Source: Candidatus Uhrbacteria bacterium (GTDB lineage: Bacteria > Patescibacteriota > Patescibacteriia > UBA9934 > GWF2-40-263). Taken from it: DNA of 64,000 nucleotides. The DNA lies in the NCBI GenBank assembly GCA_016188425.1, contig JACPHX010000006.1, forward strand, positions 28,585-92,584. Reading direction: 5' to 3'. Made by a program: the position numbers and the translations under genes. The notes beneath the pieces are model-generated. The model had not been told where the DNA came from. It was given only the letters and a program-made list of their open reading frames with translations, and did not search any database. Positions 24,443 through 60,882 of the stretch are shown here, one piece after another (position 1 is the stretch's first letter; every line of letters starts with the position of its first letter).

Positions 24443-24443
24443 A

Positions 24444-24601
24444 GGGGGAAGGGTGACCAAGGGTGAACAAGAGAGAACAAGGGTGAACAAGGGGGGGAAT
24501 TAGTAGGACGTTAACAATCAGAACAAATGAAACAAATCATTTTCATGTTTTTATAAAACTATTCGCTTCCTCCCCTCTTGTTCTATCTTGTTCACCCTCC
24601 T
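24444..24601. repeat. CAAGG-type short-tandem-repeat element, inverted pair (GGTGAACAAG units) flanking a 69-bp AT-rich spacer
   Basis: gggtgaccaagggtgaacaagagagaacaagggtgaacaagg ... cctcttgttctatcttgttcaccctcc. Confidence 0.6.
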
Positions 24602-28400: not shown

Positions 28401-31400
28401 TCGCCGCAGATCGCCGAGGCGCCAACCACCGTTCCTTGACAGAAGGAGTTGGGATAGAAACCGTCAGGGACAGAGGCGGGGGGATCATCTACACAGGCCG
28501 CATTGCCGCCCACCGTACAATCCTCCCCCCCTCGATTCCCTCCCACGCAGGTGGCTCCATTGCAATACCCATGCAGCACGTTGTATTCCGCGCGCAATGA
28601 AGAGTAATCGTTGGTATCCTGGTCGATATTTTCACTCCAAGGATAGTCCCCGTATTCCAGCATCCCTACGAGGTGATAGGCCGTGCTGCCGACGCCCTGG
28701 TACGCATAGATATGCGATCCTGGCGCGCACGCGAACTTCCCCGCCGTCGAATCGAAACAAGTCTCCGGGTCCGGATTGAACCCGCCCGAGCTGTCACAAG
28801 AGGAGAAACGGTTAATCGAATCGATAGGCAGCGTCCCTCCGACCAAGTTCCCGAGTTGCGCCTGCCAGCTGGGCCAGCGGCTGACGCTTTGCGCGCGGAT
28901 GAACGTCCCTTCGGAAAGCGCGGGGATGGAGGGGAGGCAGGCCTCGCCGATCGGACATTCGAAATCGAACCGGCAGGCGATGTCGGAACGAACCTCACAA
29001 TGGCCGTTACGCTGGGCCACGGTGCGTATGGCATCCTCCATCTTCAACAACTCTGTGAGGCGCACGGTATCGCGTCGTAATTTTGGCTTGTCCGCGCCGC
29101 AATACTGCCGGTCGCCGCAATCGCCGTCCCAGCTGCAACCAACCGGCTTGCCATCCGCATCCGTAGCGATCGCCGCCGTCCCCATGCCCACGCACACGTT
29201 AAACGATTCAACATTGGTGTTGAACTTCCAGTTCGCGATCGCTTGGTTGAAAATCTGCACTGCCACGTCGCCCGCATTTGGGTTGGTCGTCACCACGAAA
29301 ATGTTCGGATGCAGCTTGTTGTCGTCCCCCAACGTCGGCGCCGCGATATAAGCGGTATTTCCATCGCGCACCGCATCGTATCCGTCGATCTTGATGGGCT
29401 GCGGGCTCCCTTGGAAATTCTGGACGCGATACCAGTCCATGGCCGACAAATAGCCCGGGTTGCCGAGCACTTTCACGCCCAACGCATCCGTTTTAACGAC
29501 ATGGCTTACGTTCATCTCATCCACGAAAGTCTGGTTGGCAATGTACAAGCTTTCTTTGAACACTCCACGCGCCGTGACAGGCGTCGCGACATGCACGTAC
29601 TCCAAACGGGGCAAATCGTCCGCCGTGCTTGCCGGATCCCCCACATCCGCACAATAGAAGAACTGGTAATAGGTGGGGTCGCTCTCGCCAGGGTCGAACG
29701 TGGTGCCGTCATCGAGTGCGGAGTCGGTATCGCGGAAATAGTAGGGTTGCTCACACAGTGGAGCAAACAAATCCACGGATCCGTTCACGACCTTGGAGGG
29801 GGTCGTGTCGGTTCCCTCAAAGATGCTCGCACTGGCCATCGCCGTGCCCTCGCCCGTCTTTCCAAGGGCTGTATATCGCCGATACTGATCGTTGGTCGCA
29901 TAATCTGGATCCGCATCATTTCCAAAGACGGCTGATGAATCGGAAGGGAGGATAGTCCAGGCGTAGGTCCACGCGTACACGCCCGTGATGGATTGCAACG
30001 GCTGCGTTTGGTTCAACGTAAACGCCGTTGAGAGAAGCCGATGCTCCTCATTCGTTTTTCGGAAGACTTGCGAGTGGAGCGGGAGCCTTGGGTTCCCGGC
30101 GGCCGGAAGCGCGGCTCGATCCCCCAAATCTTGCACCACCACTTGCTCTACTTTGCAAAGTTCCGAAGTGGTCGTGAACGGAATCACATGCACCCCACCC
30201 GCCTCCTTTGGCAAACCAACGCCATGCTCGCTCAAAAGGCCGATCTTCGTGGCAGGATCGCCATCATCGGTATTGATGACGAGCTGGTAGGTTTGGCCTG
30301 CTGCGGTGGGCTCTAATGCTTGGGAAAGTTTTATGTGCATCTGCGCCTTTTCATAAATGGCATCCGGGTCGGGAAGCGTGTCCACCCAGTCCACCACCTC
30401 AAATGTGATGGGCAGGTAGCAGACTGAGCTCTGGGCGGAAACAGAATAGCCAAACAGCCACCGGAAACTAGAAACGATATGATGCCAGGCCTTGGCATAC
30501 CAGGTATTGGGAACGGCCTCCGCTGTGAGATAGCCGGCCGGACACGTCCCTCCAACCAGTTCCAAATGGACATTCTCATCCAACAAGTCTTCCGCCATCG
30601 GCTGATCGAAGTTCACGAAGATATCGGCATTGCGGCAAATCTGCGGAGTGCCAGATAAAGGCGGGAAGGAACTGACAATGGTCGGACGCGGGTAACAGCA
30701 TCCGGTCTCGGCACACGCGTACACCGGTGGAAGCGACGGATCCGGATCGATGCATTGGGTGTCATCCGTACACGTGCAGGAAACACTGTATTTTGCGGTT
30801 CCCTTCACGGTGTTTGCTTCTGCGGTAATCGTGGACGTGGCAATTTTTGTGAGCGGATCCAATTCCACTGCGGCATTCAGATCGATTTTGGCGAGCGTAA
30901 ACGCGGGTGTAAAGACAGCAGTGCCCGCGTACTCGCATTCCTCACCGATCCCCGTGGCCTTGTCGCCGCAGAACGAAGGGGTCGTGTACGTACTCGACGA
31001 CCCTTCTGCCAAGCAGTTCATGGAACAGCCGTCGCCGCTCGTATAGTTGCCATCATCGCAATCTTCTCCAGGATCCACCACCGCCACTCCCGCGCCAGGA
31101 GGATCGCCACAGCAATTCGTCAAATGCGTCGCGTCACAGATACGCAATCCCTCATTGAGACACAAGGAAGAACATCCATCGCCATCCACAGCATTGTTGT
31201 CATCGCAATCTTCTCCTGGTTCTTGCGTCCCATTCCCACAAATCCCGATCAAGGCCGCGGCCGACATGGCGATCGTGCCTTCATGAAGACAAATGGAGGA
31301 ACATCCATCGCCGTTGAACCGGTTCCCATCATCGCACTCTTCCCCGCCAACAGCCGCACTGTAAGCCACGTGGCCATCGCCGCAAGTCGTACGCGCGGCG

Positions 31401-34400
31401 GCCGATCCTTCATTGAGGCAGCGAGAAGAACATCCGTCGCCATTGATGACATTCCCATCATCGCACTCTTCCGGCGCATCTAAAGATCCGTTCCCGCAGG
31501 CGGCGTTTTCTATGCCTATATGGATACACGTAGGTCCGCAGCCAAACGGCAGCGGCCCGCCCGAAAAGGCCGCATCGCAATCTTCCCCCGCTTCAACCAC
31601 GCCGTTTCCGCAATGCGGATCGGTTATTTTAATAAGACTTCCTGTGTGTAAACAGCTTCCCGCACACCCGGCCGGGAGCGAAGCACCTATGGTCAATGTC
31701 GAATCGACCGTAGCAACATCCACGTTCGCATCTGCGGGCGGCACATCGACGTCCGCGCTGCTCCAAGGGGACCACGCCACGTTTGTTTGGAGATATTGCC
31801 CGGTAGGAGAACAGGCATCCGGTGCGCTCTTGGGGAGGCCGATGAATAGCTGCGTATCCCCTATCGATGTGGTTTGCGCCGCCTCCGGCCGCACTTCAAC
31901 GCTCGCCACGTCGCAGCGATCCCCTGTTCCGCTGGTCTTGAACACCCAGGAATAGTCATTGGTATAGCCGTGATTCTGATCGTCGTTGGATCCGTCAATG
32001 GATAAGGCAACGCCGCCGCTGGCATCCGTGATGTTGCCAGAGACGACCACGCGGTAGAACGTATCGGCAATCAGGGAACTGTTGAGGTTGATCCCCACTT
32101 CGCGGCAACCGCTCGCCGCCGGCGAGGTATCCAGACAGACGGGAGTCACGAGATACGCATTGCGATTAATGCGCGCCGCATCGCCATCGACGCACAATTC
32201 ATTCGGACATTGCCACAGGGAGTAATTCCCGGTGGTAAGGGCCTGGGTCGAGTTCATCTCCGTATTGAAACGGACGCCCGCGCTCGCATTGATGCAGGCC
32301 TCGCCGCAATCCGGCCACACATGCTCAACCTGCGGGTTGGGAAACTCCACCGTGATATCTGCCTGGCCGCCGACGGGGGTCGTGATCCCTGTGAGCAAGG
32401 CCACGATATGGGCAGGATCGGGATTGGTTTCCGCAAGAGCGGTGGCGGTGTTATCAAAATTGGTATCAGCCGTGACGACGGAAACGGATCCGGATTGGGT
32501 GCTGGACCAGGCAAATGAATAGGCCGCCGGATTCAGAACCAGACAGCGACCTGCCATGGGCAGTGCGTCATAATCCTGTGTCTTCGCTACAGAAGCAAGC
32601 GTTGTATCTGCGGGAGACACAAGTACGCCGCTGACGTCGCAATCTGTCCCGGCACGAACTTTGAAACGGAAAATGTAATCGCTTCCCAGTTTTTCCCCAA
32701 GCTGCGGGGGAACATCGATAGCCTTAAACAAGTTGCCTCTGAGAGTCACCCTGTAGGTGCTTCCAGCCGCAAACGGAGTCGCGGGCGTCCATAAAAAGAC
32801 TTTCGGTTTTGGATCAGAAGGAGGCGAGACAGCAAATGTCCCCGTCACGGGCGAAACCGTGTCACAGGGGTCATCCCCCGTATCCGTACACGTATCCACC
32901 GCGACGGCCGCGCCGTTAAAGGTGGTCAAATCCATCTTGGTTGTGAACTCCACCCGGATGATCGACGTGGTACAAGCATCCTCTCCCCACGCATCCCACG
33001 GGGAAGGCGATACAACCCGCTTGTCATCCGATGGATTGAGGGTACCGCGCGTGTCGATGGAACACTCTTCCAAGACGCGAGGAATGACAGGCAAGGGCCC
33101 CGTTGCAAACTGATACACAAAACTCGCGGCCACGGGTTGTTTGCACACATCCGCACAACTCCCGTCCGCACAGCACAAGTAGCCGATGCCAAACCCATGG
33201 CAATAATCCGCACTCTCTTCCCGGCAGTCGCTCACCGAAAACGGCAAAGGGTTGCTCGTATAACCGGCTCCCGCCGTTGTCGCCGTGACGGCACCCGTTG
33301 TCGCGCCGACCGGAACTTGCGCCCCGCTGATTTCATCGTTATCCCACGCCGCCACCACGGCAGGAACTCCATTGAAAAAATCCACCGTCCCCGTCGTCGT
33401 CCCAAGATTCTCGCCGTCCAGTTTAACAACGCTACGATTCGCCGCCGTCCATTCAGGCCCCGAAACGGGTGTCAATTTGCACAAAGCCGGCCCAGGTTGG
33501 TCATCGATGACCGTGAATGGCGCCGGGCCAGAACTCTGCGCGTCGGAAGATCGTTGCACGAAAATGTTATGGGTAAGGTATTCGATGGGATCCGGCGGAG
33601 CCACATACGTCGTCGGCACCTTCACAAGAATGGTGCTGTCGTTCCAAAGAGCCGCCCCGCACGCCGGTGGAAAATCTGTATCAGCCAAGGCGAAGACGCC
33701 CCCCCCTTTGTCAAAAGTAACCGTTCCTCCGAATCCGAAATGCGATCCAAGAATGGTGACATACTGCCCTGGTGGCCCCCAATCATTCACTTCCGCGCAA
33801 GAAATGGACGCCCCGCAATCCGCCACGGCATTGGCGACGGAGCAATGCGCTCCATCATTCGCTCCACCTGCACACGCATGCCAGCCAGAGACGACTTCAT
33901 TGATGACCGGCGGGTTGGCATCGGCATCCTGGGTAAAGACAAGTGGGTTGGATCCTTGTCGGAGCGGAAGGCAGACCCCGTCCGCAGGCGCGCACCGGTC
34001 GGTCGCCGAACAAAGTTCTGCCGTATTGATAGAACAGGCGTCCTCCCCAATAAACATCCTCACGTAATGCGATCCGGAACTCAAGAGCGGAGCCGTGGCG
34101 GTGGCGGACGTGCTGGACCATGTGGCTGTGTTGTAGGAAGTCGCTCTTGATGCATCGAAATAGACGGTCGAAGAAGCCGTATACGTCGAACCGAAATTCT
34201 TTCCAGAAAGCGTGACGCTGGACTGCCGCGGCCCGGTGGAAGGACTGATGGAACAAAGCCCGGGACGGACAATCGTGTTCACGTCAAAATCCGCAATGTG
34301 CGGGCCGTAGGTATCATCCGTCTGATCCGTTTTTGTCGGGTCGTCCCCCCGAAGGACTTCGATGGGGCCATCAACCGCTCCCACGGGAACCTCCACGACG

Positions 34401-35911
34401 ATCAACCGGTCCCCCCATTGCGGAGAGCCGCTGCAGACCGCGGCTGATACGGTCTTCTCGTCACCAGAAACAGGTGATCCTAAGAAAACCACTGTGCCCG
34501 CGCTCGCGGTTGGGCCGAAATTGCGGCCGATGATGCTGATGAGGTTTCCGACGGCTCCGTCTCCAGGCGTCACCTGGTCGATCCGCGGCCGCGTGTCTGC
34601 GGCACAGACGCCGGCGACGCACACTTCGTCCGTGCCGCAATCCGTATCGACGGAACAGGCGCCTCCTACGCATGCGCCGCAGTAATACTGGCTGGTCGTG
34701 CTTCCGCCGCAGTTCAGCTCGGTCTCGCCCAAATCCGTATCGATGGCGAGGTTGTTGCAATTGGCCGCGCGCAGGAACACCCTCGACGTCGTACTCGTCT
34801 CATTCGCCGCACAATCAAACCCCTTCATCCCGATCGTATACTGGCGGTTGGTCATGTACCCCGCCGCATCCCACTCCGATCCGTCATCGAAAAACAAACG
34901 CTCCGTGGTCGGGAACGGCTGCCCCGCAACGGGGAATGAATCGCTCGTCGAAAGGTCGGAGGAGGGGGTGAACAAGGTTCCATTGACGGAAAAATCGACG
35001 GCGTCTACCCCGACATCATCTTTGGTATAGGCCTGCAGGTCGATCGGGAACCCCCCCGCAAACACCACCGTGCCGTCCGCGGGCGCGTCGGCATGAACCG
35101 TGGATGGCGGAGCCGTGTCTATCGTTGCCAATGGGTCTATGGCAAACGAATACGTGCAGGGATGGGTCACGTCGCACACCAATGCCCAGCCGTTAGTTGA
35201 ACGGAGGATGGAAGGATCTGCCTTCACCGTATAACTCGTATCCGCCGGCAGACACGGAACCCCGGAACAGGTATTGGCGGGGGTAAACGTTACCCTCGAC
35301 CCAACGAGAGAAAACGTTCCTGGAACATCGTCCGACGTTGCGTCATCAATCACCCGCAACCCGCCGACAAGGGTGCTGTCTGGCAGCTGGATCCTGCTCA
35401 TCTCCGGGGGTCTCGTAAAAGAAAACTGGAGCAGCGTATTGGAAACGAATTCAAAACAATCTACGTTGAGCGGATTAAGCTGGAAGGAACGGCCCGGGGA
35501 CGGAGGGAATACCGGGTCTCTAGCCGGCTCCGATGAAGTCGTTCCCCCGCTGATCGCCGATGACAGGCGGCTGATGACAAAACTCGCAATCCCGTAGGCC
35601 CCCAAAATGAGAACGAGCCCGATCAGTCCGTTTCGAAGGATATCCCTCCCCTTCTTGACCCGCTTCTGATCACCGGCGGAGGTAAGGAACACCCATCCGC
35701 CCCACAGCACGATGAGCACTGCCAAAACTCCCAGGAAACCCAACAGGACGCTGATCAGTTTTGCGACGATCAATGGCACGCTGTCATTCACCCCCAGCCC
35801 CGCGATGTTCGCGAACGTGCCGGTAAGGCCGAAATTCGTTTGCGCCAACGCCACTTGCGGCATAAGCAGCAGAAGGAGTGGGAACAGACGAATGAGAAGG
35901 CGCTTGATCAC
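25454..35911 (-). CDS. Giant (3485 aa) surface protein: signal peptide plus TrbC/VirB2-like pilin membrane module, Ig/IPT-like regions, Myxococcus-type Cys-rich repeats (CGxGxxExGEECDDGN..GDGCS..C), C-terminal vWA domain with MIDAS
   Basis: N-terminus MIKRLLIRLFPLLLLLMPQVALA|QT...VLIVLWGGWVFLTSAGDQKRVKKGRDILRNGLIGLVLILGAYGIASFV. Cys repeats lie in roughly the second quarter of the protein plus a second cluster nearer the C-terminus. vWA DVVFVLDKTASMS...IIVSDSD at ~25860-26370. Confidence 0.7.
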   Translation of the reverse strand: MIKRLLIRLFPLLLLLMPQVALAQTNFGLTGTFANIAGLGVNDSVPLIVAKLISVLLGFLGVLAVLIVLWGGWVFLTSAGDQKRVKKGRDILRNGLIGLVLILGAYGIASFVISRLSSAISGGTTSSEPARDPVFPPSPGRSFQLNPLNVDCFEFVSNTLLQFSFTRPPEMSRIQLPDSTLVGGLRVIDDATSDDVPGTFSLVGSRVTFTPANTCSGVPCLPADTSYTVKADPSILRSTNGWALVCDVTHPCTYSFAIDPLATIDTAPPSTVHADAPADGTVVFAGGFPIDLQAYTKDDVGVDAVDFSVNGTLFTPSSDLSTSDSFPVAGQPFPTTERLFFDDGSEWDAAGYMTNRQYTIGMKGFDCAANETSTTSRVFLRAANCNNLAIDTDLGETELNCGGSTTSQYYCGACVGGACSVDTDCGTDEVCVAGVCAADTRPRIDQVTPGDGAVGNLISIIGRNFGPTASAGTVVFLGSPVSGDEKTVSAAVCSGSPQWGDRLIVVEVPVGAVDGPIEVLRGDDPTKTDQTDDTYGPHIADFDVNTIVRPGLCSISPSTGPRQSSVTLSGKNFGSTYTASSTVYFDASRATSYNTATWSSTSATATAPLLSSGSHYVRMFIGEDACSINTAELCSATDRCAPADGVCLPLRQGSNPLVFTQDADANPPVINEVVSGWHACAGGANDGAHCSVANAVADCGASISCAEVNDWGPPGQYVTILGSHFGFGGTVTFDKGGGVFALADTDFPPACGAALWNDSTILVKVPTTYVAPPDPIEYLTHNIFVQRSSDAQSSGPAPFTVIDDQPGPALCKLTPVSGPEWTAANRSVVKLDGENLGTTTGTVDFFNGVPAVVAAWDNDEISGAQVPVGATTGAVTATTAGAGYTSNPLPFSVSDCREESADYCHGFGIGYLCCADGSCADVCKQPVAASFVYQFATGPLPVIPRVLEECSIDTRGTLNPSDDKRVVSPSPWDAWGEDACTTSIIRVEFTTKMDLTTFNGAAVAVDTCTDTGDDPCDTVSPVTGTFAVSPPSDPKPKVFLWTPATPFAAGSTYRVTLRGNLFKAIDVPPQLGEKLGSDYIFRFKVRAGTDCDVSGVLVSPADTTLASVAKTQDYDALPMAGRCLVLNPAAYSFAWSSTQSGSVSVVTADTNFDNTATALAETNPDPAHIVALLTGITTPVGGQADITVEFPNPQVEHVWPDCGEACINASAGVRFNTEMNSTQALTTGNYSLWQCPNELCVDGDAARINRNAYLVTPVCLDTSPAASGCREVGINLNSSLIADTFYRVVVSGNITDASGGVALSIDGSNDDQNHGYTNDYSWVFKTSGTGDRCDVASVEVRPEAAQTTSIGDTQLFIGLPKSAPDACSPTGQYLQTNVAWSPWSSADVDVPPADANVDVATVDSTLTIGASLPAGCAGSCLHTGSLIKITDPHCGNGVVEAGEDCDAAFSGGPLPFGCGPTCIHIGIENAACGNGSLDAPEECDDGNVINGDGCSSRCLNEGSAAARTTCGDGHVAYSAAVGGEECDDGNRFNGDGCSSICLHEGTIAMSAAALIGICGNGTQEPGEDCDDNNAVDGDGCSSLCLNEGLRICDATHLTNCCGDPPGAGVAVVDPGEDCDDGNYTSGDGCSMNCLAEGSSSTYTTPSFCGDKATGIGEECEYAGTAVFTPAFTLAKIDLNAAVELDPLTKIATSTITAEANTVKGTAKYSVSCTCTDDTQCIDPDPSLPPVYACAETGCCYPRPTIVSSFPPLSGTPQICRNADIFVNFDQPMAEDLLDENVHLELVGGTCPAGYLTAEAVPNTWYAKAWHHIVSSFRWLFGYSVSAQSSVCYLPITFEVVDWVDTLPDPDAIYEKAQMHIKLSQALEPTAAGQTYQLVINTDDGDPATKIGLLSEHGVGLPKEAGGVHVIPFTTTSELCKVEQVVVQDLGDRAALPAAGNPRLPLHSQVFRKTNEEHRLLSTAFTLNQTQPLQSITGVYAWTYAWTILPSDSSAVFGNDADPDYATNDQYRRYTALGKTGEGTAMASASIFEGTDTTPSKVVNGSVDLFAPLCEQPYYFRDTDSALDDGTTFDPGESDPTYYQFFYCADVGDPASTADDLPRLEYVHVATPVTARGVFKESLYIANQTFVDEMNVSHVVKTDALGVKVLGNPGYLSAMDWYRVQNFQGSPQPIKIDGYDAVRDGNTAYIAAPTLGDDNKLHPNIFVVTTNPNAGDVAVQIFNQAIANWKFNTNVESFNVCVGMGTAAIATDADGKPVGCSWDGDCGDRQYCGADKPKLRRDTVRLTELLKMEDAIRTVAQRNGHCEVRSDIACRFDFECPIGEACLPSIPALSEGTFIRAQSVSRWPSWQAQLGNLVGGTLPIDSINRFSSCDSSGGFNPDPETCFDSTAGKFACAPGSHIYAYQGVGSTAYHLVGMLEYGDYPWSENIDQDTNDYSSLRAEYNVLHGYCNGATCVGGNRGGEDCTVGGNAACVDDPPASVPDGFYPNSFCQGTVVGASAICGDGIQGANEFCEVGQIKPVDCKLGYCKGGTRDGSYCSEATDCATTPGGSCDPATLKCVGGTAAANTTCTVATQATDCPSITCDRSVEKDGHKLVPCAPTAGLCAVTFAPGQLPYQRSCTTTADCESASLYCATLFCGGDPSFGACAVAANCKICSGGIRDGLHCVSDSNCLGSGTCGVSGAACTPMTQNVCAFTTDTGSSATCVAYQCGNGVPDEDEDCDEGFLNGTYGHCPSDCQIATGTQRNICGDGTLDAGESCDCGGLFSTALGGWATAAHCGTLRNGEYGSACAADCRGVGPSCGDGLVQTANNEICDPNDPATRYAKEPVGYCELDPTNYCTGDGVADCPVDTTPCVFPVLSNVCDQGDPVKIGGICSIPQNCDKGVPGDADYVRGSCSAQTYPIQYSLTCSTSGANACKGYDRVGSPNGGGQYCGDGRKTGTEECDDGNRNDNDGCTNSCKTAVCGDNVVNLGVESCDNGSQNGNGCNAPYGGVCTGCTRDCRFETVTGAFCGNNVIEGTELCDGLMAANSAGICSGIITFPSPGVLMGGACTFPGGACSTVGTSCKEIGYCDGGTNVGMRCVRDASVDALLDPSCVGGGGVCVVAKCAGDCASTCPPVFTSQKARMLPEIVNSTLVDSVTLFSQASGQFPNDAKVFLPVCSVLSTLTMDVRIPGAPAPHDTDVVFVLDKTASMSRAFGGSTRLQEAGDAVAAQIDLMRNRWQGSGKILRVGLAVFGDRAAVGQALDADTNLARNKVVNLTGADAAGSALVNAGVSVANGMFSGSADQVMIIVSDSDPVDSPAWNLVNIVKNPDGSLKNPARRVYSLTITNTMDPLVDTAGVERAGVMASVTNDLCAWGNASPTTPTQTQLQHYRTSTDLSSPRVCGPNTGVEYAYTAWTQSVFISAARFIVDSFSPFSVTVTGKDRDGNTVQSVGILTQGVGQIIPIPAGLLGCDGVSSIPINIRADCPTGCTISNVSAAACPAR

Positions 35912-35923
35912 AAACGATGAAGG

Positions 35924-37726
35924 TTAGTAAGGCAGTCCGCCACCCAAAGGAGCCGCCGCATTGCAGGCACCGGAACGAGCCGTCAAAAGAGGTGACGGCT
36001 CGGTTCCCTCGCTGCAACAGTTCGGGTTGGTCGAATCGCTGGCGCACACAGGAAGCGTTCCTCCGCTCAAAGCCGGATACATACAAAACTGATTGGATCC
36101 TTTCAATCCATGGGTGATTTCCTGGAAATACGCCAATCCTCCATCCATATCTGAAATAAGGGGAGGATGTTCAATGAGAGCAATGTTGGGAGTGATGCCA
36201 AGCGCTCCGGTAAACCAGACCGAGTAATCTGGAAGAGAGGTGGAGGGATGGAAAATCAGGTTTGAATTACTTACGGTGGAAGGTTGCAGATTTCGATTAA
36301 ACGTAATCGTGATGGGATCATTCAGACTGGCAAATGACTTGTTGATGGCCGGGCTCAATCCGACCACCGCTGGCGTGGCTGTATCGATGAAGTTTGTTGT
36401 TGTAAATGACCAAGGAAAATCGTCACCAGCAGTTCCATCCCCTCCAATGACACCGCCATCAAGCGAGTTTCCTGCCGCATCCACGACCCCGTCATAGGGG
36501 ACGACGGACTGAACGGTATTGGTGGGATCAATCGACGTATCGATGGTCGCCGCGGTCGCGAGACCCGAGATGGTTGCCGCCCCTGGAAGGCAATAGACCG
36601 TGTTCCCGCACGGATCCGTCGCACATCCCTGGGCAGGGATAAACTCGACCGTGCGATACCCGTTGCTGATTTGCCAAACCCCCACCACGGGCGTGCCTCC
36701 GTTGTCTAACACAAGGTTTGTAAACGGAAGCGTGTGTCCTGTCGTTGCCACCGGATTCATGGCCTCGTTGAACGTGATCGACGCAATGGTATTTTTATCG
36801 ACCGCAGGCGACGACGGCGCCGGGACCCGCGACACCACATACGGAGGAGTCAGGTCGACCGTGGTTCCAACCTCGAAGGTCCAAGAGTAGCCAGCTGGGT
36901 ACCCAGCAAACGCATCCGCCGTATCGTCTTTTTTGATATCCGAAGTTAGATGCACGGTATAGTTGGTGTCCTGCACACCATCACCCAGCCAATTCACCGG
37001 ATCAAACGTATACACTTTGTGATCCTTCGTGACGAACACCTTGACGTCCGCGGGAAGAAACTTAGAAGTGATGTCGGCTGATTTGAAAAACTCCACCGAA
37101 GTATCGGCTATTTGGCCGGATCCGGATCCGTCCCCGTTATCGACGAACCCAACCATAACCGTGTTGGGGTCGACGGCCTCTTTGAAGGTGAGGAAAACGT
37201 TTGTATTCCTCGCCACATCAAGCGCGCCCCGGGGCGGATAGTGATCCTGCACGATCCCCAGCCCAAGCGGGCCGGAGAGCGGATCCGTATACCGGCCAGC
37301 CAGATCCGTCCGTGTGCCCACACCCGTCAGGACATTTACGCCCAGCAGGCGGAAGATGAATACGACGATGGCCCAGGATGCCAAAATGATGATAAGGCCG
37401 ATGACCGCATTTTTGAGCACGTTGCGGCCCTGCTCTACCCGACGTGCGTCCCCCGCCGACGTCATGATGACGTACCCGGCATACAAGATCATGACAACGG
37501 CGATGATGCCGATAATGCTCAAGAAGGCGAGAATCAACAGTTCGATGATTTCAATAAGCGGCCGCTGCCCCAAGAGCGTCGCCTGCGTGCCAACCTGTTC
37601 GAGCGCAGACGATTGGGCCAGGGCCGGAGACGCAGAAAAAAAGAAGCCAAAGATACCAAAAGCAACCGAACCAAAAAGGGAACGAAGCGTCCGTGTCCGT
37701 AAATGAAGAAAAGAAAAAACGCGCAT
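35924..37726 (-). CDS. 600-aa surface protein: signal peptide plus the same TrbC/VirB2-like pilin module, followed by bacterial Ig-like (Big_5-type) domains
   Basis: SASPALA|QSS...ILYAGYVIMTSAGDARRVEQGRNVLKNAVIGLIIILASWAIVVFIF; 12-nt gap to the giant gene. Confidence 0.65.
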   Translation of the reverse strand: MRVFSFLHLRTRTLRSLFGSVAFGIFGFFFSASPALAQSSALEQVGTQATLLGQRPLIEIIELLILAFLSIIGIIAVVMILYAGYVIMTSAGDARRVEQGRNVLKNAVIGLIIILASWAIVVFIFRLLGVNVLTGVGTRTDLAGRYTDPLSGPLGLGIVQDHYPPRGALDVARNTNVFLTFKEAVDPNTVMVGFVDNGDGSGSGQIADTSVEFFKSADITSKFLPADVKVFVTKDHKVYTFDPVNWLGDGVQDTNYTVHLTSDIKKDDTADAFAGYPAGYSWTFEVGTTVDLTPPYVVSRVPAPSSPAVDKNTIASITFNEAMNPVATTGHTLPFTNLVLDNGGTPVVGVWQISNGYRTVEFIPAQGCATDPCGNTVYCLPGAATISGLATAATIDTSIDPTNTVQSVVPYDGVVDAAGNSLDGGVIGGDGTAGDDFPWSFTTTNFIDTATPAVVGLSPAINKSFASLNDPITITFNRNLQPSTVSNSNLIFHPSTSLPDYSVWFTGALGITPNIALIEHPPLISDMDGGLAYFQEITHGLKGSNQFCMYPALSGGTLPVCASDSTNPNCCSEGTEPSPLLTARSGACNAAAPLGGGLPY

Positions 37727-37803
37727 GGGATATCTTCATTTTACAACATCTCGGCGCGCAGGGCGAGGAGAGACCCCATGTGGACAAGATTGTTACGACC
37801 CCC

Positions 37804-38547
37804 CTACATCATCTCCATGATCCGCGCGGACACCACGACAAACACCGCCATCACAAGCACGCTTCCCAAGATTCCCATAAAGACCTGTTTTTTAGCTTTT
37901 GTATACGTCTCATCCGCTCCACTTGCCACCATCCAATTGAAAGACCCCAGAAGGACCAGGTTCGCACAGACAATTCCCATCATAAGAACAAGCACCCGCG
38001 CGCTCCGAAGGAGCATGAGCCCGCTTTCTTTCCCAGCGGAGACCGCGGAAGCGGCAAACGTTTGATCGGCAAAAGCGAGCGCTCCGACTGATACAAGAAC
38101 GAACAAAGGAAGCAACGACTGCACGAGGTCACGCACCCGTCCGCCATCCGCCCTGCCCGCGACCGCCTTCATGGCGATCCCCATCGCCTTTCCAAAATCC
38201 GCCTTGCTGCTCGCCCCAGAGGCCGCAAGCGATTCTTGCACGATCGCGCGCAATTCATCTTCCGGAAGTTGGGCGGGGAGATACGCCTCCAACAGCAAAA
38301 TTTCCCCTTCTGCCTTGGTGACCAATTCTGCGCGGCCTGCGCCGCGGGCGATCTCCAACGCTTCCTGCAGCTGCTTGAGCTGCCCCTTGACGATCGCCAA
38401 CGTTTCCTCGTCTGTGAGCGGATGCATCAGTTCGATTTGGCGGTTCTTGAGCGCCGATTTCAACAACCGCAGGGTAGAAACCCGCTCTGCCTGCTGTGCC
38501 TTATAGGCCGTCTTAAAATCGGCATCGATGCGCTCAAGGATAGTCAT
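37804..38547 (-). CDS. YqeY (GatB/YqeY domain) protein fused in-frame to a C-terminal TrbC/VirB2-like pilin module
   Basis: Residues 1-~150 match B. subtilis YqeY (...GASSKADFGKAMGIAMKAVAGRADGGRVRDLVQSLL). No stop follows; reading continues into PLFVLVSVGALAFA|DQT...LLGSFNWMVASGADETYTKAKKQVFMGILGSVLVMAVFVVV. Confidence 0.55.
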   Translation of the reverse strand: MTILERIDADFKTAYKAQQAERVSTLRLLKSALKNRQIELMHPLTDEETLAIVKGQLKQLQEALEIARGAGRAELVTKAEGEILLLEAYLPAQLPEDELRAIVQESLAASGASSKADFGKAMGIAMKAVAGRADGGRVRDLVQSLLPLFVLVSVGALAFADQTFAASAVSAGKESGLMLLRSARVLVLMMGIVCANLVLLGSFNWMVASGADETYTKAKKQVFMGILGSVLVMAVFVVVSARIMEMM

Positions 38548-38608
38548 AAAAGAAAAAGATTCATCTACAGGATAGGACAACTGGGCAAGGAAGACAACGG
38601 ACAAACGT

Positions 38609-38709
38609 AAAGGTCGAAGGTCAAAGTTCGAAGGCCGAAGGAAGGTTTTGTCTTTTTTAAAACAATGCCTTCTTCCAACCTTCGACCTTCAGAATTCGAC
38701 CTTCGACCT
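38609..38709. repeat. GAAGG-type short-tandem-repeat element, inverted pair (GTCGAAG 7-mer units) flanking ttttgtcttttttaaaacaatg
   Basis: aaggtcgaaggtcaaagttcgaaggccgaaggaagg ... ccttcttccaaccttcgaccttcagaattcgaccttcgacctt. Confidence 0.65.
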
Positions 38710-38733
38710 TATTTCTCAGCGATGTCTTCCCTT

Positions 38734-38988
38734 TTATCGCCGTCCTGGTTTCTTTTTCACCGCCAAATCCGCTTCGCTGACCCGTCCGCTCTTGATAAGC
38801 CACTCTCGCTGGGTTCCCTTCTTGATGCGGCGCAAGGCGCTTTTACGGGCGGCGTTTTTGGTTGGGGATCCGCCATGGAAACGGCGTTTCCGCGCCTCCA
38901 ACAACCGTCCGCTTTCCGAAATACGGCGGCTAAAGCGTCGCAGCACTCCTTCAAAACTTTCATTTCTACGTCGTTTTACTTCTGCCAC
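38734..38988 (-). CDS. rpsU: Ribosomal protein S21
   Basis: GTG start with AAGGAT upstream. ...AEVKRRRNESFEGVLRRFSRRISESGRLLEARKRRFHGGSPTKNAARKSALRR matches the S21 consensus. Confidence 0.7.
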   Translation of the reverse strand: MAEVKRRRNESFEGVLRRFSRRISESGRLLEARKRRFHGGSPTKNAARKSALRRIKKGTQREWLIKSGRVSEADLAVKKKPGRR

Positions 38989-39043
38989 AGAGATGATTTT
39001 TATCCTTAATATGGCGTTAGAATGCCCGTCCCTCTGGAACCTG

Positions 39044-40414
39044 TCAACTCTCCGCCTCCACAGAGCCACCGGAAAGCTTCTTCTCCATCATGGGAACGAT
39101 TTTGAGGATATCAACGGTTTCCTGCGCCCCGGATTCCATATCGCGCACAAGTATCGTGCCGTCCAGCACTTCCTTCTGACCCAAGATGAGCGCATACGCA
39201 ACGCCAAGCTTATTGGCGGCCTCAAGTTGAGACTTGAGGGCGTTCTTCCCCGAGGCCTCGGCGATCAGCACATGGGCCTTGCGGAACTCTTCAAACACGC
39301 GCAAGCCGACCCGGCGCGCGGCATCGCCCAGCTGGGCAAAAAAAATCTTGGGGCGGTTGCGGAGCTCGGGCGCGGAACCGGATTCTGTCATGGCGCGCAC
39401 GGCACGCTCTATCCCAAAGGCAAACCCGCAGGCTGGAGCCGGCCGCTCCCCTCCCATCACCTCCACCAGACGGTCGTACCGGCCGCCGCCGCACAGCGAG
39501 TTCTGCGCGCGGTCACCCGCGTCCCCTTCCTGCCAGATTTCAAAAACCGTGTGGGTATAGTAATCGAGCCCGCGAACCAGGTGCGGGTTCAGGACATACG
39601 GAACTTGCACTTCATCTAGGTACTCAATCACCTTCATGAAATGATTTTTGGAATCTTCATCCAGCCAATCCAAAATTTGCGGGGCCGCCGCCAACAGCTC
39701 GATCGTTTGCGGATCCTTGCTATCCAAGAGGCGCAACGGATTTTTTTGCAGACGATGCTTGTCTTCTTCGCTCAACTTCGCGCGATGCGTACGGAAGTAC
39801 GCCGTCAGCTGGGTGAGATACGCCTGGCGGCTCTCGGGCGTCCCGATCGAGTTCAGCTGGACGCTTACTTTTATCCCCAAATCCTGAAAGAGACGCGTGG
39901 CGATCAGGATAAGCTGCGCGTCTACCACGGGGTCTTGCACCCCAAGCACCTCAAACCCGATCTGCTGGTGCTGGCGATACCGGCCCGCCTGCGGCCGATC
40001 GTGGCGGAACATGGGCAAGTCGTACCAAAGCTTCACGGGCTGGGGCAGGTTCCACATGCCGTGGTTGATATAGGCGCGCGCAATGGAAGCCGTCCCTTCC
40101 GGCCGCAGGGCGACTTGCGTCTCGGAAGGGTCGATGAAGGTATACATCTCTTTTTCAACGACGTCCGTATGTTTCCCCAGCGTACGCGTCCACAAATCGG
40201 CCCGTTCCAGCACGGGGAGTTCGATACGGCCAAAACTGTAGGCATCTGCCATGCCGCGCGCTTGGTCGCGCACGGCATCCCACTTCGCTTGCTCCTCCGG
40301 CAATACGTCGCGGAACCCGCGCAGCAATTCAGGAGGGGCTTTTTTCTTTTTTCCATCGAGGGACAGTTTCTTTTCCTCCTTCACCACTGGTTTTTTGTTG
40401 AACATAGGAATCAA
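39044..40414 (-). CDS. hisS: Histidyl-tRNA synthetase
   Basis: Class II aaRS motifs (GFRDVLPEE..., ...RYDRLVEVMGG...). 4-nt overlap with lepB. Confidence 0.85.
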   Translation of the reverse strand: MIPMFNKKPVVKEEKKLSLDGKKKKAPPELLRGFRDVLPEEQAKWDAVRDQARGMADAYSFGRIELPVLERADLWTRTLGKHTDVVEKEMYTFIDPSETQVALRPEGTASIARAYINHGMWNLPQPVKLWYDLPMFRHDRPQAGRYRQHQQIGFEVLGVQDPVVDAQLILIATRLFQDLGIKVSVQLNSIGTPESRQAYLTQLTAYFRTHRAKLSEEDKHRLQKNPLRLLDSKDPQTIELLAAAPQILDWLDEDSKNHFMKVIEYLDEVQVPYVLNPHLVRGLDYYTHTVFEIWQEGDAGDRAQNSLCGGGRYDRLVEVMGGERPAPACGFAFGIERAVRAMTESGSAPELRNRPKIFFAQLGDAARRVGLRVFEEFRKAHVLIAEASGKNALKSQLEAANKLGVAYALILGQKEVLDGTILVRDMESGAQETVDILKIVPMMEKKLSGGSVEAES

Positions 40415-41031
40415 TCTAAAAATTGGTAAACGGGTCCCTCAAAGACGCGAAGGCGGGAGATGGGAAGGCCTCGTACCCATACCCGGCCGACGATATCGGA
40501 ACGGCGAATGGGACCGAAGCTGCGTGAATCGAGACTTTCATCACGATTATCTCCGAGCACATAATATTCGTCTTCCGCGAGCGTTTCCCGACGTTTCCCG
40601 AATGTCTCGACGCTGTCCAGATACGTCTCTGACAGAACTATTCCGTTAGGGTAATCCGTATTGGAAATCGTCACCTTTCCTTCACTTACCTCTATCGTTT
40701 CCCCTGGAAGCGCAATCACCCGCTTGATGAAATATTGCTTGGAATCCGTTGGCGGCCGGAACACCACGATCTCCCCCCGGTCCGGATGGCGGAACCGGTA
40801 GGAAAGCTCGTCGATGATGAGGTATTCGTGGTCATAAAAATTGGGCTCCATAGACGCCCCCTTCACATAAAACGGCTGGATCAAGAAGTACCGGATGGGC
40901 AAGATGATGGCAACCGCGATAATCAGGATCTCGACAATCTGGATGAAAAACAAACTGACCGCTCCGAGGGTGGGCCCAAAACGCTCAAACAAAAACGAAC
41001 GGTTCGGGGGTTTCTCGATGCCCTCATGCAT
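40411..41031 (-). CDS. lepB: Signal peptidase I
   Basis: VKGASMEPNF (Ser box), YFIKRVIALPGE, YYVLGDNRDESLDSR boxes. Confidence 0.8.
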   Translation of the reverse strand: MHEGIEKPPNRSFLFERFGPTLGAVSLFFIQIVEILIIAVAIILPIRYFLIQPFYVKGASMEPNFYDHEYLIIDELSYRFRHPDRGEIVVFRPPTDSKQYFIKRVIALPGETIEVSEGKVTISNTDYPNGIVLSETYLDSVETFGKRRETLAEDEYYVLGDNRDESLDSRSFGPIRRSDIVGRVWVRGLPISRLRVFEGPVYQFLD

Positions 41032-41129
41032 AGTGGTTGCTAGCGTATCACTCGGAAAGGGAAAAATCAAAAGGTGACGGATTCCCTGGAATCCTGCTAA
41101 ACTATTTTACAAATAAACCCCTCTTTCCT

Positions 41130-41399
41130 ATGGACCAGAGTTTTGTGTGGATCAGCATCCTTTTTTCCATCGTCATGTTCGTGGTAGGCATCGCCGCCTT
41201 CGTCTTCTGGGTGTACACCCTCATTCACGCGATCAAGCACGATAATAAGGACAAGGCGCTCTGGATCGTCCTCATCGTCTTCACGGGTGTCGTAGGCTCG
41301 CTCATCTACTACTTCGTCGTGATGCGCGCGACCACAAGCACGCCAACAGGAATGTCCGGGCATCATATGCCCCCGACGTCGATGCCGCCTTCGGCGTAG
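41130..41399 (+). CDS. Small membrane protein, PLD-nuclease N-terminal (PLDc_N)-like
   Basis: MDQSFVWISILFSIVMFVVGIAAFVFWVYTLIHAIKHDNKDKALWIVLIVFTGVVGSLIYYFV. Confidence 0.5.
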   Translation: MDQSFVWISILFSIVMFVVGIAAFVFWVYTLIHAIKHDNKDKALWIVLIVFTGVVGSLIYYFVVMRATTSTPTGMSGHHMPPTSMPPSA

Positions 41400-41421
41400 A
41401 CACAAAAGAAATACATAAAAA

Positions 41422-41457
41422 ATACCCAACTCATCGGTTGGGTATTTTTTATGGTGG
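41422..41457. terminator. Bidirectional terminator hairpin (aaaaaatacccaactcatcggttgggtatttttt)
   Basis: Perfect stem flanked by A-run and T-run, between the convergent PLDc_N gene and tRNA-Val. Confidence 0.6.
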
Positions 41458-41528
41458 GCGTGAGAGGATTCGAACCTCTGACTTCTGTCGTGTGAGGACA
41501 GCGCTCTAACCAGCTGAGCTACACGCCC
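41453..41528 (-). tRNA. tRNA-Val (CAC), CCA encoded
   Basis: rc GGGCGTGTAGCTCAGCTGGTTAGAGCGCTGTCCTCACACGACAGAAGTCAGAGGTTCGAATCCTCTCACGCCCACCA. Confidence 0.85.
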
Positions 41529-41622
41529 GTATTTGTGGGCAGAGCATAACAAGGGGGAAGAAAAGGTTCAAGCAGCGCGGTTGAAAAAATGCGACAGGCG
41601 CGCTACACTTCTTCTTGCTATG

Positions 41623-55925: not shown

Positions 55926-56002
55926 TGGTAGCTGGGGTGGGAATCGAACCCACGACCTCGGGCTTATGAGTCCCGCGCTCTAACCGATTGAGCTACCCAG
56001 CC
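55926..56002 (-). tRNA. tRNA-Met (CAT), elongator-type, CCA encoded
   Basis: rc GGCTGGGTAGCTCAATCGGTTAGAGCGCGGGACTCATAAGCCCGAGGTCGTGGGTTCGATTCCCACCCCAGCTACCA; resembles E. coli elongator tRNA-Met. Confidence 0.8.
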
Positions 56003-56088
56003 GCGCATCATGTAGGGTGCACGGCAAGCCGTGGACCCGGTGGGGAGTACAACTGTTACATGGCGTGCCATGGACCCTACGTGGTCCG

Positions 56089-56176
56089 TGGTGCCGGAAG
56101 AGGGAATCGAACCCTCATGATGTTGCCATCGCAGGATTTTGAGTCCTGTGCGTCTACCAATTCCGCCATCCCGGCA
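56089..56176 (-). tRNA. tRNA-Leu (CAA), long variable arm, CCA encoded
   Basis: rc GCCGGGATGGCGGAATTGGTAGACGCACAGGACTCAAAATCCTGCGATGGCAACATCATGAGGGTTCGATTCCCTCTTCCGGCACCA. Confidence 0.85.
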
Positions 56177-56228
56177 TGGTGACAGGATACTAACAAAATA
56201 TGAGGATCCGTGTCCAGGTGTTTTTCCT

Positions 56229-56257: not shown

Positions 56258-56261
56258 CCGG

Positions 56262-60856: not shown

Positions 60857-60882
60857 ATGTTGAAGCGCGTAGAGGGCGTGGC

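What the first reader, a model, noticed from the sequence alone, without database searches (positions are those of the whole stretch)
37804..38547. YqeY (GatB/YqeY domain) reads straight into a pilin-like module with no stop codon: an unusual fusion or a missing stop
Residues 1-~150 align end-to-end with B. subtilis YqeY, including the terminal ...GKADGGxVxxLVxxLL. Where YqeY normally stops, the frame continues for ~110 aa through a signal-peptide-like segment (LLPLFVLVSVGALAFA) and the two-helix pilin module. A cytosolic tRNA-metabolism-associated domain fused to an export/membrane module is odd. A GTG (Val of RVRD) could start an independent small pilin, but it would share YqeY's frame, so the two could not coexist as separate products without a stop.
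Basis: seen in the sequence. Interest (0 to 1): 0.55.

Follow-up and report, generated by a model that had tools for sequence, protein, structure and literature searches.

The report
Conserved YqeY–pilin-like fusion protein
In one clade of the tiny Uhrbacteria, a small cytoplasmic protein of unknown function (YqeY) is genuinely fused, through what looks like a cleavable internal export signal, to a two-helix pilin-like membrane protein. It is a real evolutionary gene fusion, not a sequencing error, and it is a modest curiosity.

Summary
A 247-codon ORF on the minus strand (38547→37807, stop 37804-37806) encodes a full-length YqeY domain (res 5-146, E 2e-41). It runs without a stop into a hydrophobic segment, an Ala-x-Ala site and two long hydrophobic helices.

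It is not a missed stop. About 58 non-redundant homologues (241-272 aa, 37-57% identity) from independent assemblies have the same architecture, and the pilin part is under purifying selection (dN/dS 0.13-0.17).

The C-terminal module scores just below Pfam's T4SS_pilin cut-off. Its profile matches the bona fide pilin module of the next gene (hhalign 97.9%, E 3.5e-13).

The cluster lepB–hisS–rpsU–yqeY–(small pilin)–pilin-anchored Ig protein–giant surface protein is conserved in about 45 Patescibacteria loci. The small pilin occurs in three forms:
- separate, with its own signal peptide;
- fused to YqeY;
- separate, without a signal peptide (two secondary fissions, one in a close relative of the window's genome, nested in the fused clade).

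Most likely mechanism (inferred, not shown): the old signal peptide now acts as an internal signal sequence. Signal peptidase I cuts after invariant Ala165, giving a membrane-tethered YqeY and an ~82-aa pilin-like protein.

An internal GTG start is not conserved. No T4SS machinery was found among the window ORFs scanned.

The parts
37804..38547 (-). Complete yqeY::pilin-like CDS (247 codons plus TAG stop at 37804-37806).
   Evidence: The identical protein is in NCBI as 'GatB/YqeY domain-containing protein [Candidatus Uhrbacteria bacterium]'.
38110..38535 (-). YqeY domain, residues 5-146.
   Evidence: Pfam PF09424, E 2.4e-41, model positions 2-143 of 143. All 35 aligned homologues match it. AF2 pLDDT is about 85-97.
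38053..38139 (-). Internal signal-peptide-like segment, residues 137-165. It has an n-region (RVR/RVK), an h-region (~145-159, LLPLFVLVSVGALAF) and a c-region ending in T-F-A165.
   Evidence: The longest uncharged run in residues 143-165 has a median of 13 residues, and the distance from L146 to the site is 14-20 residues. AF2 shows one continuous helix over 135-159. The segment aligns with the N-terminal signal peptides of the separate small pilins of L020 and L021.
38050..38055 (-). Predicted signal peptidase I site between Ala165 (38053-38055) and Ala166 (38050-38052).
   Evidence: Position -1 is Ala in 35/35. Position -3 is A19, V10, T4, S1, I1. Position -2 is mostly H/L/F/Y. Position +1 is A/E/R/S and never Pro. 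The site lies in the only low-confidence loop of the AF2 model (pLDDT <50 at 163-168). Cleavage itself is not shown.
37807..38052 (-). Predicted mature pilin-like module, residues 166-247 (82 aa). Helix 1 spans 171-207 (37927-38037), a short loop follows, and helix 2 spans 213-246 (37810-37911).
   Evidence: AF2. The Pfam T4SS_pilin match covers residues 186-240 (37828-37992; 22.8-26.0 bits). hhalign to the pilin module of the Pil600 family gives 97.9%, E 3.5e-13 over 79 columns. dN/dS is 0.13-0.17.
38134..38136 (-).
   Evidence: It is a start-type codon in only 9 of 18 fused genes. Not supported as a conserved start.
38734..39069 (-). Upstream rpsU-like ORF (ribosomal protein bS21). The true start is probably internal to this ORF.
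   Evidence: Pfam Ribosomal_S21, E 6e-5, 23.1 bits, below the 27-bit cut-off. An S21 gene is also called upstream of the fused gene in L082. The rpsU-yqeY pairing is known elsewhere (PMC13374519).
39044..40414 (-). hisS (histidyl-tRNA synthetase).
   Evidence: Pfam tRNA-synt_His E 3.8e-40. Syntenic in about 40 loci.
40411..41070 (-). lepB (signal peptidase I), first gene of the apparent transcription unit.
   Evidence: Pfam Peptidase_S26 E 2.9e-45. Syntenic in about 38 loci. A tRNA (41455-41528) and a 17-bp terminator hairpin (41414-41453) lie just upstream.
35924..37726 (-). Downstream 600-aa protein ('Pil600'): signal peptide, T4SS_pilin module and Big_5 Ig-like domains.
   Evidence: Pfam T4SS_pilin 38.7 bits (above cut-off) at residues 60-124; Big_5 E 3e-19. 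Syntenic in about 50 loci. No terminator-like site lies in the 77-nt gap after the fused gene.
25454..35911 (-). 3485-aa giant surface protein with an N-terminal pilin-like module, plus TIG, Big_5, Big_7, DUF4215 and VWA domains.
   Evidence: T4SS_pilin 25.2 bits at residues 48-112. Syntenic.

Best explanation
This is a genuine, evolutionarily maintained gene fusion in one clade of Candidatus Uhrbacteria (Patescibacteria/CPR).

In this lineage yqeY sits in a conserved cluster: lepB–hisS–rpsU–yqeY–[small pilin-like gene]–[pilin-anchored Ig-domain protein]–[giant pilin-anchored surface protein]. The open reading frames of yqeY and the adjacent small pre-pilin gene were joined. The pre-pilin's N-terminal signal peptide thereby became an internal signal sequence that continues directly from the last YqeY helix.

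Proposed mechanism:
1. The YqeY domain folds in the cytoplasm.
2. The hydrophobic segment (residues ~145-159) inserts N-in/C-out.
3. The two pilin helices insert as a hairpin, out-in-out. This is the same topology that the homologous module must have in the neighbouring proteins, whose Ig domains are extracellular.
4. Signal peptidase I, encoded three genes upstream, cuts after the invariant Ala165.

The products would be a YqeY carrying a single C-terminal membrane anchor and a free ~82-aa two-helix PF18895-type membrane or pilin protein. This is effectively a small polyprotein in which YqeY plays the part of an extremely long pilin leader.

Shown: the ORF, its conservation, the homology of both halves, the synteny, the fusion/fission series and the purifying selection.

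Inferred: the topology, the cleavage and the roles of the products. If cleavage does not occur, the same protein is a YqeY anchored by three transmembrane helices (see rival 1).
For: Reality and conservation:
- About 58 full-length homologues are found.
- In the 35-sequence alignment all members carry a YqeY domain, and R184 and G225 are invariant and G191 and G201 nearly invariant in the C-terminal module.
- Eighteen species-representative genomes have intact fused ORFs.
- In unsaturated pairs dN/dS is 0.13-0.17 for the pilin module and 0.03-0.39 for YqeY.

Homology of the C-terminal module:
- hhalign against the pilin module of the Pil600 family gives 97.9%, E 3.5e-13.
- An HMM search of 1.84 billion representatives finds 4828 relatives, including stand-alone small forms.

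Signal-peptide character:
- Positive n-region (RVK/RVR), short h-region (median longest uncharged run 13 residues), and a c-region with Ala at -1 in 35/35 and A/V/T/S/I at -3.
- The site falls in the only disordered loop of a pLDDT-88 model.
- The segment aligns with the true N-terminal signal peptides of the separate small pilins in L020 and L021 (...LVLA|RSE...VALA|ATS). The leaderless separate forms (L018, L022, P0136, P0140) start just before helix 1, about where the cleaved product would start.

Phylogeny (HisS NJ tree, 200 bootstraps):
- All small-pilin genomes form one clade (200/200).
- L018, which has the split form, is nested inside the fused clade and often pairs with the window genome.

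Enzyme and precedent:
- lepB is present in the same gene run.
- F-pilin TraA has a 51-aa leader cut by LepB between Ala51 and Ala52, leaving a 70-aa pilin (PMC7555446).
Against: - Cleavage has not been observed, and no dedicated signal-peptide predictor was available.
- Finding some (-3,-1) motif in this Ala-rich stretch is expected by chance (shuffle control 0.88 per sequence). The argument therefore rests on positional invariance and on homology to real signal peptides. The invariant column could also be partly an alignment effect.
- K+R counts do not discriminate the hairpin orientation.
- Only 3 of 35 members reach E<=0.01 against Pfam T4SS_pilin.
- The fold search returned only generic helical hairpins and no pilin structures.
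- No VirB4-like or other T4SS gene was found among the window ORFs scanned, so 'pilin' may be a misnomer for a membrane-anchor module.
- No adaptive advantage of the fusion has been shown. Two lineages have undone it, so it may be nearly neutral.
Confidence: 0.6

Rival explanations
1. The fusion is real but is not cleaved. The protein is a YqeY domain permanently anchored in the membrane by three transmembrane helices, and the pilin-like hairpin serves only as an anchor.
For: AF2 models residues 135-159 as one continuous helix leading into the hairpin. PF18895-like modules clearly act as N-terminal membrane anchors in the two downstream surface proteins. The chance control for the AxA motif is weak.
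Against: The hydrophobic run is short for a stable anchor (median 13 residues) and is followed by a polar or Pro-containing c-region with invariant Ala. The segment is homologous to real cleavable N-terminal signal peptides. Related genomes encode the hairpin alone, without YqeY (L018, L022, P0136, P0140), so the hairpin has a role of its own.
Confidence: 0.28
2. One ORF gives two products by internal translation initiation. Full-length YqeY-pilin is made together with a separate pre-pilin started at Val138 (GTG) or at Met122/Met126, with its own N-terminal signal peptide.
For: The window has GTG at Val138. Met122 is conserved. G-rich codons upstream give some anti-SD complementarity (about -5 kcal/mol).
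Against: Val138 is a start-type codon in only 9 of 18 fused genes. Met126 is absent in 3 fused genes, and the SD-like complementarity upstream of the internal Met codons is the same in unfused yqeY genes, so it reflects coding constraint. True yqeY starts in these genomes show no SD at all. Apparent short proteins starting at an internal Met are contig-edge fragments.
Confidence: 0.06
3. Artefact: a sequencing, assembly or gene-calling error (lost stop codon or indel) has merged two separate genes in this assembly.
For: Separate yqeY and small pilin genes do exist in some relatives (L018, L020-L022). Metagenome-assembled genomes can carry indels.
Against: The same uninterrupted architecture appears in dozens of independent assemblies from different studies at 37-57% identity. 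The linker length is conserved and selection is purifying on both sides of the junction.
Confidence: 0.02

Closest known systems
Stand-alone YqeY (Pfam PF09424; e.g. B. subtilis YqeY; GatB C-terminal-like domain)
   Same: The N-terminal 146 residues are a full-length YqeY domain ending in ...GRADGxRVxxxVxxLL. The gene follows an rpsU-like gene, as it does in Bacillus and Francisella.
   Different: Ordinary YqeY stops at ~145-150 aa and is soluble, as in the unfused loci. Here it continues into a membrane segment. The function of YqeY is still unknown.
CPR 'T4SS_pilin' proteins (Pfam PF18895), treated as VirB2-like pilins in Patescibacteria (bioRxiv 10.1101/2025.01.22.634366)
   Same: A signal-peptide-like segment followed by two long hydrophobic helices with a short SGRD-type loop. 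There is profile-level homology to a bona fide member encoded next door. It occurs in a run of three consecutive genes carrying the module, reminiscent of the reported pilin arrays.
   Different: It scores below Pfam's cut-off. The signal peptide is internal, behind a folded cytoplasmic domain. No virB4 or other T4SS gene was found among the window ORFs scanned. The neighbouring members use the module as an anchor for large surface proteins.
F-pilin TraA propilin and other conjugative pilins with long leaders
   Same: A small two-helix membrane pilin is made with an unusually long N-terminal leader, which LepB removes at an Ala|Ala bond (TraA: 121 aa, cut at Ala51|Ala52, 70-aa product; PMC7555446). 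Here the predicted cut is Ala165|Ala166 and the product is 82 aa.
   Different: The 'leader' here is 165 aa and contains a complete, independently conserved protein domain. No sequence or fold match to TraA or VirB2 was obtained.
Deinococcus radiodurans GlnRS with an appended YqeY-like domain (PMC1865053)
   Same: A YqeY-type domain fused to another protein in one polypeptide.
   Different: There the YqeY-like domain is C-terminal, on a tRNA synthetase. Here YqeY is N-terminal and its partner is a membrane module with no evident link to tRNA.
Polyproteins split at an internal signal peptide (e.g. flavivirus/HCV capsid–envelope junctions; Bradyrhizobium FbcH cytochrome b–c1), recalled from general knowledge and not retrieved in the paper search
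   Same: A cytoplasmic or membrane domain, then an internal signal sequence, then signal peptidase cleavage. The upstream part is left anchored by the signal peptide.
   Different: No experimental evidence of processing exists here, and the components are unrelated.

Membership tests
YqeY (PF09424) | Full-length match to the family model above the curated cut-off. | tested here: met
   141.6 bits against a 27-bit cut-off; model positions 2-143 of 143. 35/35 homologues match.
YqeY (PF09424) | Typical genomic pairing with rpsU (bS21). | tested here: inconclusive
   The upstream ORF matches Ribosomal_S21 at 23.1 bits, below the 27-bit cut-off. An S21 gene is called upstream of the fused homologue in L082, with a weak match.
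YqeY (PF09424) | Small soluble single-domain protein of ~145-150 aa. | tested here: not met
   The protein is 247 aa with three predicted hydrophobic helices after the domain.
T4SS_pilin (PF18895) / VirB2-like pilins | Match to the Pfam model at the gathering score. | tested here: not met
   22.8 bits (whole protein) and 26.0 bits (C-terminal part alone) against 26.6. Only 3 of 35 homologues reach E<=0.01.
T4SS_pilin (PF18895) / VirB2-like pilins | Homology to bona fide members by profile-profile comparison. | tested here: met
   hhalign of A2 against A3 (the pilin module of the Pil600 family, whose window member scores 38.7 bits on PF18895) gives probability 97.9%, E 3.5e-13 over 79 columns.
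T4SS_pilin (PF18895) / VirB2-like pilins | Signal peptide followed by two hydrophobic helices joined by a short polar loop. | tested here: met
   The signal peptide is internal rather than N-terminal.
T4SS_pilin (PF18895) / VirB2-like pilins | Structural similarity to solved VirB2/TraA-type pilins. | tested here: inconclusive
   Foldseek against the PDB gave no hit at E<=0.001 and only generic helical hairpins. There was no sequence hit to PDB chains.
T4SS_pilin (PF18895) / VirB2-like pilins | Genomic association with T4SS machinery (VirB4, VirB6, etc.). | tested here: not met
   About 33 of ~53 window ORFs were scanned, including all ORFs of 360 aa or more. They are housekeeping or surface proteins, with no T4SS family. 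Only the 64-kb window could be examined.
T4SS_pilin (PF18895) / VirB2-like pilins | Polymerises into a pilus. | not testable with these tools
   Needs microscopy or biochemistry.
Signal peptidase I substrates | n/h/c-region organisation with small residues at -3 and -1 and no Pro at +1. | tested here: met
   Position -1 is Ala in 35/35; -3 is A/V/T/S/I in 35/35; +1 is never Pro; median longest uncharged run (h-region) 13 residues. Caveat: mere presence of the motif is expected by chance in this Ala-rich stretch (0.88).
Signal peptidase I substrates | Actual cleavage by the enzyme. | not testable with these tools
   lepB is present at 40411-41070, but processing has not been observed.

The most novel reading that the evidence does not exclude
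The fusion is functional rather than neutral. YqeY, a widespread translation-associated protein of unknown function that is co-expressed with ribosomal protein bS21, is deliberately delivered to and held at the membrane by an internal signal sequence. There it, or the ribosomes or tRNAs it binds, would support local synthesis and insertion of the pilin-anchored giant surface proteins encoded immediately downstream. On this reading the YqeY-leader/pilin polyprotein is a dedicated biogenesis device of the Uhrbacteria cell surface, and it would give the first functional handle on YqeY.
Probability: 0.1. Interest if true: 0.7.

Novelty: new variant of a known kind. Interest (0 to 1): 0.4.

Why it matters
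- YqeY is one of the widely conserved bacterial proteins that still has no known function. A clade in which it is obligatorily membrane-linked, next to relatives where it is free, is a natural experiment on where it can work.
- The locus is a clean, datable example of gene fusion and fission in reduced CPR genomes. The small pilin is separate with a signal peptide, then fused, then separate without one.
- If cleavage is confirmed, it is a rare bacterial case of a polyprotein resolved at an internal signal peptide.
- Annotation: these proteins are labelled only 'GatB/YqeY domain-containing'. The membrane half is missed because it scores below Pfam's cut-off.
- The conserved lepB–hisS–rpsU–yqeY–adhesin cluster may be useful for understanding how Uhrbacteria build their cell surface.

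Tried and rejected
- Missing stop or assembly error: rejected on conservation.
- Internal GTG start at Val138: codon not conserved.
- Internal start at Met122/126: SD-like signal equal in fused and unfused genes, and Met126 is missing in three fused genes.
- Short database proteins starting inside YqeY as evidence for a separate gene: P0122 is a contig-edge fragment with the frame open to the contig end.
- Fold search of the C-terminal model against the PDB: only generic hairpins, uninformative.
- Profile search of solved structures by sequence: nothing significant.
- Alignment-free test for the AxA motif: not discriminating, because the region is Ala-rich (shuffled expectation 0.88).
- Positive-inside count: not discriminating.
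- Search for T4SS machinery in the window: none among the ORFs scanned.
- Literature search for a described YqeY–pilin fusion: none.
- Literature search for bacterial internal-signal-peptide polyproteins: nothing useful.

Full report
**1. What is in the sequence**

The ORF is on the minus strand. The ATG is at 38547 and the stop at 37804-37806, giving 247 aa. A longer version from a TTG at 38604 is not supported, because homologues start at the ATG.

Pfam results:
- A complete YqeY domain covers residues 5-146 (PF09424, 141.6 bits, model positions 2-143 of 143).
- A sub-threshold T4SS_pilin match (PF18895) covers residues 186-240. It scores 22.8 bits in the whole protein and 26.0 bits for the C-terminal part alone, against a cut-off of 26.6.

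Between the two lies LLPLFVLVSVGALAFADQTFA|ASA.

**2. It is not a missed stop**

- The identical protein is in NCBI as a 'GatB/YqeY domain-containing protein' of a Candidatus Uhrbacteria bacterium.
- Roughly 58 of the best 120 non-redundant database hits cover 95-100% of the query at 241-272 aa and 37-57% identity. Ordinary 144-150-aa YqeY proteins only begin below them.
- A scan of one genome per GTDB species returned 80 loci. Eighteen have an uninterrupted fused ORF, and one more (L011) runs off its contig in the fused frame.
- In the 35-sequence alignment the YqeY part keeps its family-wide invariant residues. The tail has its own invariant or near-invariant positions: A165, R184, G191, G201 and G225.
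- In the codon comparisons that are not saturated (L005/L010, L003/L005, L003/L010, L012/L059), dN/dS is 0.13-0.17 for the pilin module and 0.03-0.39 for YqeY. The hydrophobic linker and the first ~15 residues after it evolve fast. That is what a signal peptide and a mature N-terminus typically do.
- Database 'proteins' of ~130 aa that begin inside YqeY are fragments. P0122 lies 43 nt from a contig end, with the frame open to the edge.

**3. What the tail is**

- Single-sequence Pfam support is weak. Only 3 of 35 members reach E<=0.01 against T4SS_pilin.
- A profile of the tails (A2) aligns with a profile of the N-terminal modules of the downstream 600-aa protein family (A3) at 97.9% probability, E 3.5e-13, over 79 columns. 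The window member of that family scores 38.7 bits on PF18895.
- An HMM search of 1.84 billion cluster representatives finds 4828 relatives at E<=1e-3. They include about a dozen fused clusters, stand-alone 76-92-aa forms, ~130-140-aa forms with their own signal peptide, and proteins with 3-8 tandem modules.
- AlphaFold2 (35-sequence alignment, mean pLDDT 88) gives the YqeY helical bundle, then one continuous helix over 135-159, which is the last YqeY helix running into the hydrophobic segment. A disordered stretch follows at 160-170 (pLDDT <50 at 163-168), and then a hairpin of two long helices at 171-207 and 213-246.
- A fold search with the tail alone found only generic helical hairpins and no pilin structure. 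A sequence-profile search of the PDB found nothing.
- The module is therefore a divergent member of the PF18895 superfamily. Whether it is a pilus subunit was not tested.

**4. Context and history**

The gene lies in a minus-strand run with these members:
- a tRNA and a strong terminator hairpin upstream;
- lepB, encoding signal peptidase I;
- hisS;
- an rpsU-like ORF;
- yqeY::pilin;
- a 600-aa protein with a signal peptide, a pilin module and Big_5 Ig domains;
- a 3485-aa protein with a pilin-like N-terminus and TIG, Big, DUF4215 and VWA domains.

No terminator-like site lies in the 77-nt gap after the fused gene. The rest of the window is housekeeping (ftsA, ftsZ, ybeY, topA, relA/spoT, der, dprA, parB, aaRS genes). 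No T4SS family was found among the roughly 33 ORFs scanned.

tblastn shows the order lepB–hisS–yqeY–Pil600–giant in about 45 Patescibacteria loci, whether or not yqeY is fused. The non-CPR loci lack it.

Four states occur between yqeY and Pil600:
- nothing, in about 30 loci;
- a separate 137-140-aa small pilin with its own N-terminal signal peptide (L020, L021);
- the fusion;
- a separate 76-80-aa small pilin with no signal peptide, starting 0-3 nt from the yqeY stop (L018, with an ATGA overlap, and L022).

A HisS neighbour-joining tree with 200 bootstraps gives this picture:
- All small-pilin genomes fall in one clade (200/200), sister to the 'nothing' clade.
- L020/L021 group with L016 (fused) and L022 (split) in a basal group (200/200).
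- All other fused genomes form the main clade (200/200).
- L018 is nested in that clade. It pairs with the window genome in 102/200 replicates, and the clade without L018 is recovered only once in 200.

So the small gene arose once, was fused once or twice, and the fusion was undone at least twice with loss of the signal-peptide segment. This is a single-protein NJ tree, and the exact number of fusion events is not resolved.

**5. How it most likely works**

The segment after YqeY has the anatomy of a signal peptide:
- a positive n-region, the conserved RVK/RVR of YqeY's own C-terminus;
- a short h-region (the longest uncharged run has a median of 13 residues);
- a polar or Pro-containing c-region;
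- 14-20 residues after L146, a column that is Ala in 35/35, with A/V/T/S/I at -3, mostly H/L/F/Y at -2, and A/E/R/S but never Pro at +1.

It aligns with the real N-terminal signal peptides of the separate small pilins in L020/L021. The leaderless forms begin just before helix 1, about where the cleaved product would begin.

The module's topology can be inferred from its homologues next door, whose Ig domains must be outside. The N-terminus is out, the loop is in, and the C-terminus is out. That is compatible with a cytoplasmic YqeY followed by an N-in/C-out first helix.

The genome encodes signal peptidase I three genes upstream. I therefore propose a polyprotein-like mechanism: membrane targeting by the internal signal sequence and cleavage after Ala165. 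The products would be a YqeY left with one C-terminal membrane helix and an 82-aa two-helix protein.

The nearest precedent is the F-pilin precursor TraA. It is 121 aa, LepB cuts it between Ala51 and Ala52, and the mature pilin is 70 aa (PMC7555446).

Caveats:
- Cleavage is inferred, not shown.
- Mere presence of an AxA-type motif is expected in this Ala-rich stretch (0.88 in shuffles).
- Charge counts do not fix the orientation.
- The uncleaved three-helix anchor remains a serious rival.

Internal initiation is unlikely. Val138 is a start-type codon in only half of the fused genes. SD-like complementarity upstream of Met122/126 is no stronger in fused than in unfused genes, while genuine yqeY starts in these genomes have none.

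**6. Comparison with what is known**

- YqeY is still of unknown function. It resembles the tRNA-binding tail of GatB, is appended to Deinococcus GlnRS, and is co-transcribed with rpsU in Bacillus-type and Francisella operons.
- PF18895 proteins are treated as VirB2-like pilins of Patescibacteria and often occur in arrays (10.1101/2025.01.22.634366).
- No paper in the searchable library mentions a YqeY–pilin fusion.
- Public annotation records only the YqeY domain.

The architecture is therefore a previously undescribed combination of two known families, with an internal signal peptide as the joint.

**7. Verdict**

This is a real, conserved fusion (confidence about 0.95). The cleavage mechanism is plausible but unproven (about 0.55-0.6 of the total). 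The functional meaning for YqeY is unknown. Two natural reversals suggest that the linkage is tolerated rather than essential. It is of moderate interest: a neat evolutionary and annotation case, with a small chance of shedding light on what YqeY does.

Noticed in passing
L023-L026, L028, L029, L033, L035, L037, L044-L046, L049, L053 (start of the Pil600 gene, e.g. L025:4472-4510): In the clade without a small pilin, the start of the big pilin–Ig gene carries a near-identical element, aaTCTTTC(T)nCCCATGCTTGAGAAAGGtt. The left arm is non-coding and the right arm codes for x-K-G. CTTTC and GAAAG could pair, with the ATG in the loop. This may be a translational control hairpin or a pyrimidine-rich initiation signal. 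The strict pattern did not match anywhere in the window sequence (both were searched).
   Followed up: partly
Proteins P0121, P0134, P0137, P0139, P0142, P0220: Some metagenomic proteins carry 3-8 tandem copies of the two-helix PF18895-like module in one polypeptide behind a single signal peptide. These are 'poly-pilin' chains, a fused version of the pilin gene arrays reported in CPR.
   Followed up: no
window 25454-41070 (-) and L002-L053, L059, L068: The gene order lepB–hisS–(rpsU)–yqeY–Pil600–giant surface protein is conserved across about 45 Patescibacteria species representatives. It ties housekeeping translation and secretion genes to two pilin-anchored surface proteins.
   Followed up: partly
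window 25454-35911 (-): A 3485-aa ORF has an N-terminal pilin-like module (25.2 bits) followed by TIG, Big_5, Big_7, DUF4215 and VWA domains. It is probably a giant membrane-anchored adhesin. The next ORFs include a TSP3-repeat protein at 23756-24490.
   Followed up: no
window 41097-41552 (-): This 151-aa ORF has no Pfam hit and overlaps a tRNA gene (41455-41528) and a 17-bp-stem terminator hairpin (41414-41453). It is probably not a gene.
   Followed up: partly
yqeY start codons in L001-L053 and the window (38548-38570): The annotated yqeY starts in these CPR genomes have essentially no Shine-Dalgarno complementarity (mean duplex energy about 0 kcal/mol). This suggests SD-independent or coupled initiation in this operon.
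   Followed up: no
window 9074-9478 (-); 15596-15670, 55929-56335: A tmRNA gene (115.6 bits) and four further tRNA genes.
   Followed up: no
window 1228-2520 (-): A 430-aa ORF matches teneurin-type EGF domains and a MopE-like metal-binding motif, which is unusual for a CPR bacterium.
   Followed up: no
window 59447-62305 (-): Two adjacent class II aminoacyl-tRNA synthetase genes of the Asp/Lys/Asn type (496 and 432 aa).
   Followed up: no
L018:4441-4671 and L022:4447-4689: The split forms encode the two-helix module with no signal peptide at all. In L018 the start overlaps the yqeY stop (ATGA). The module can therefore evidently be made and inserted without a leader.
   Followed up: partly
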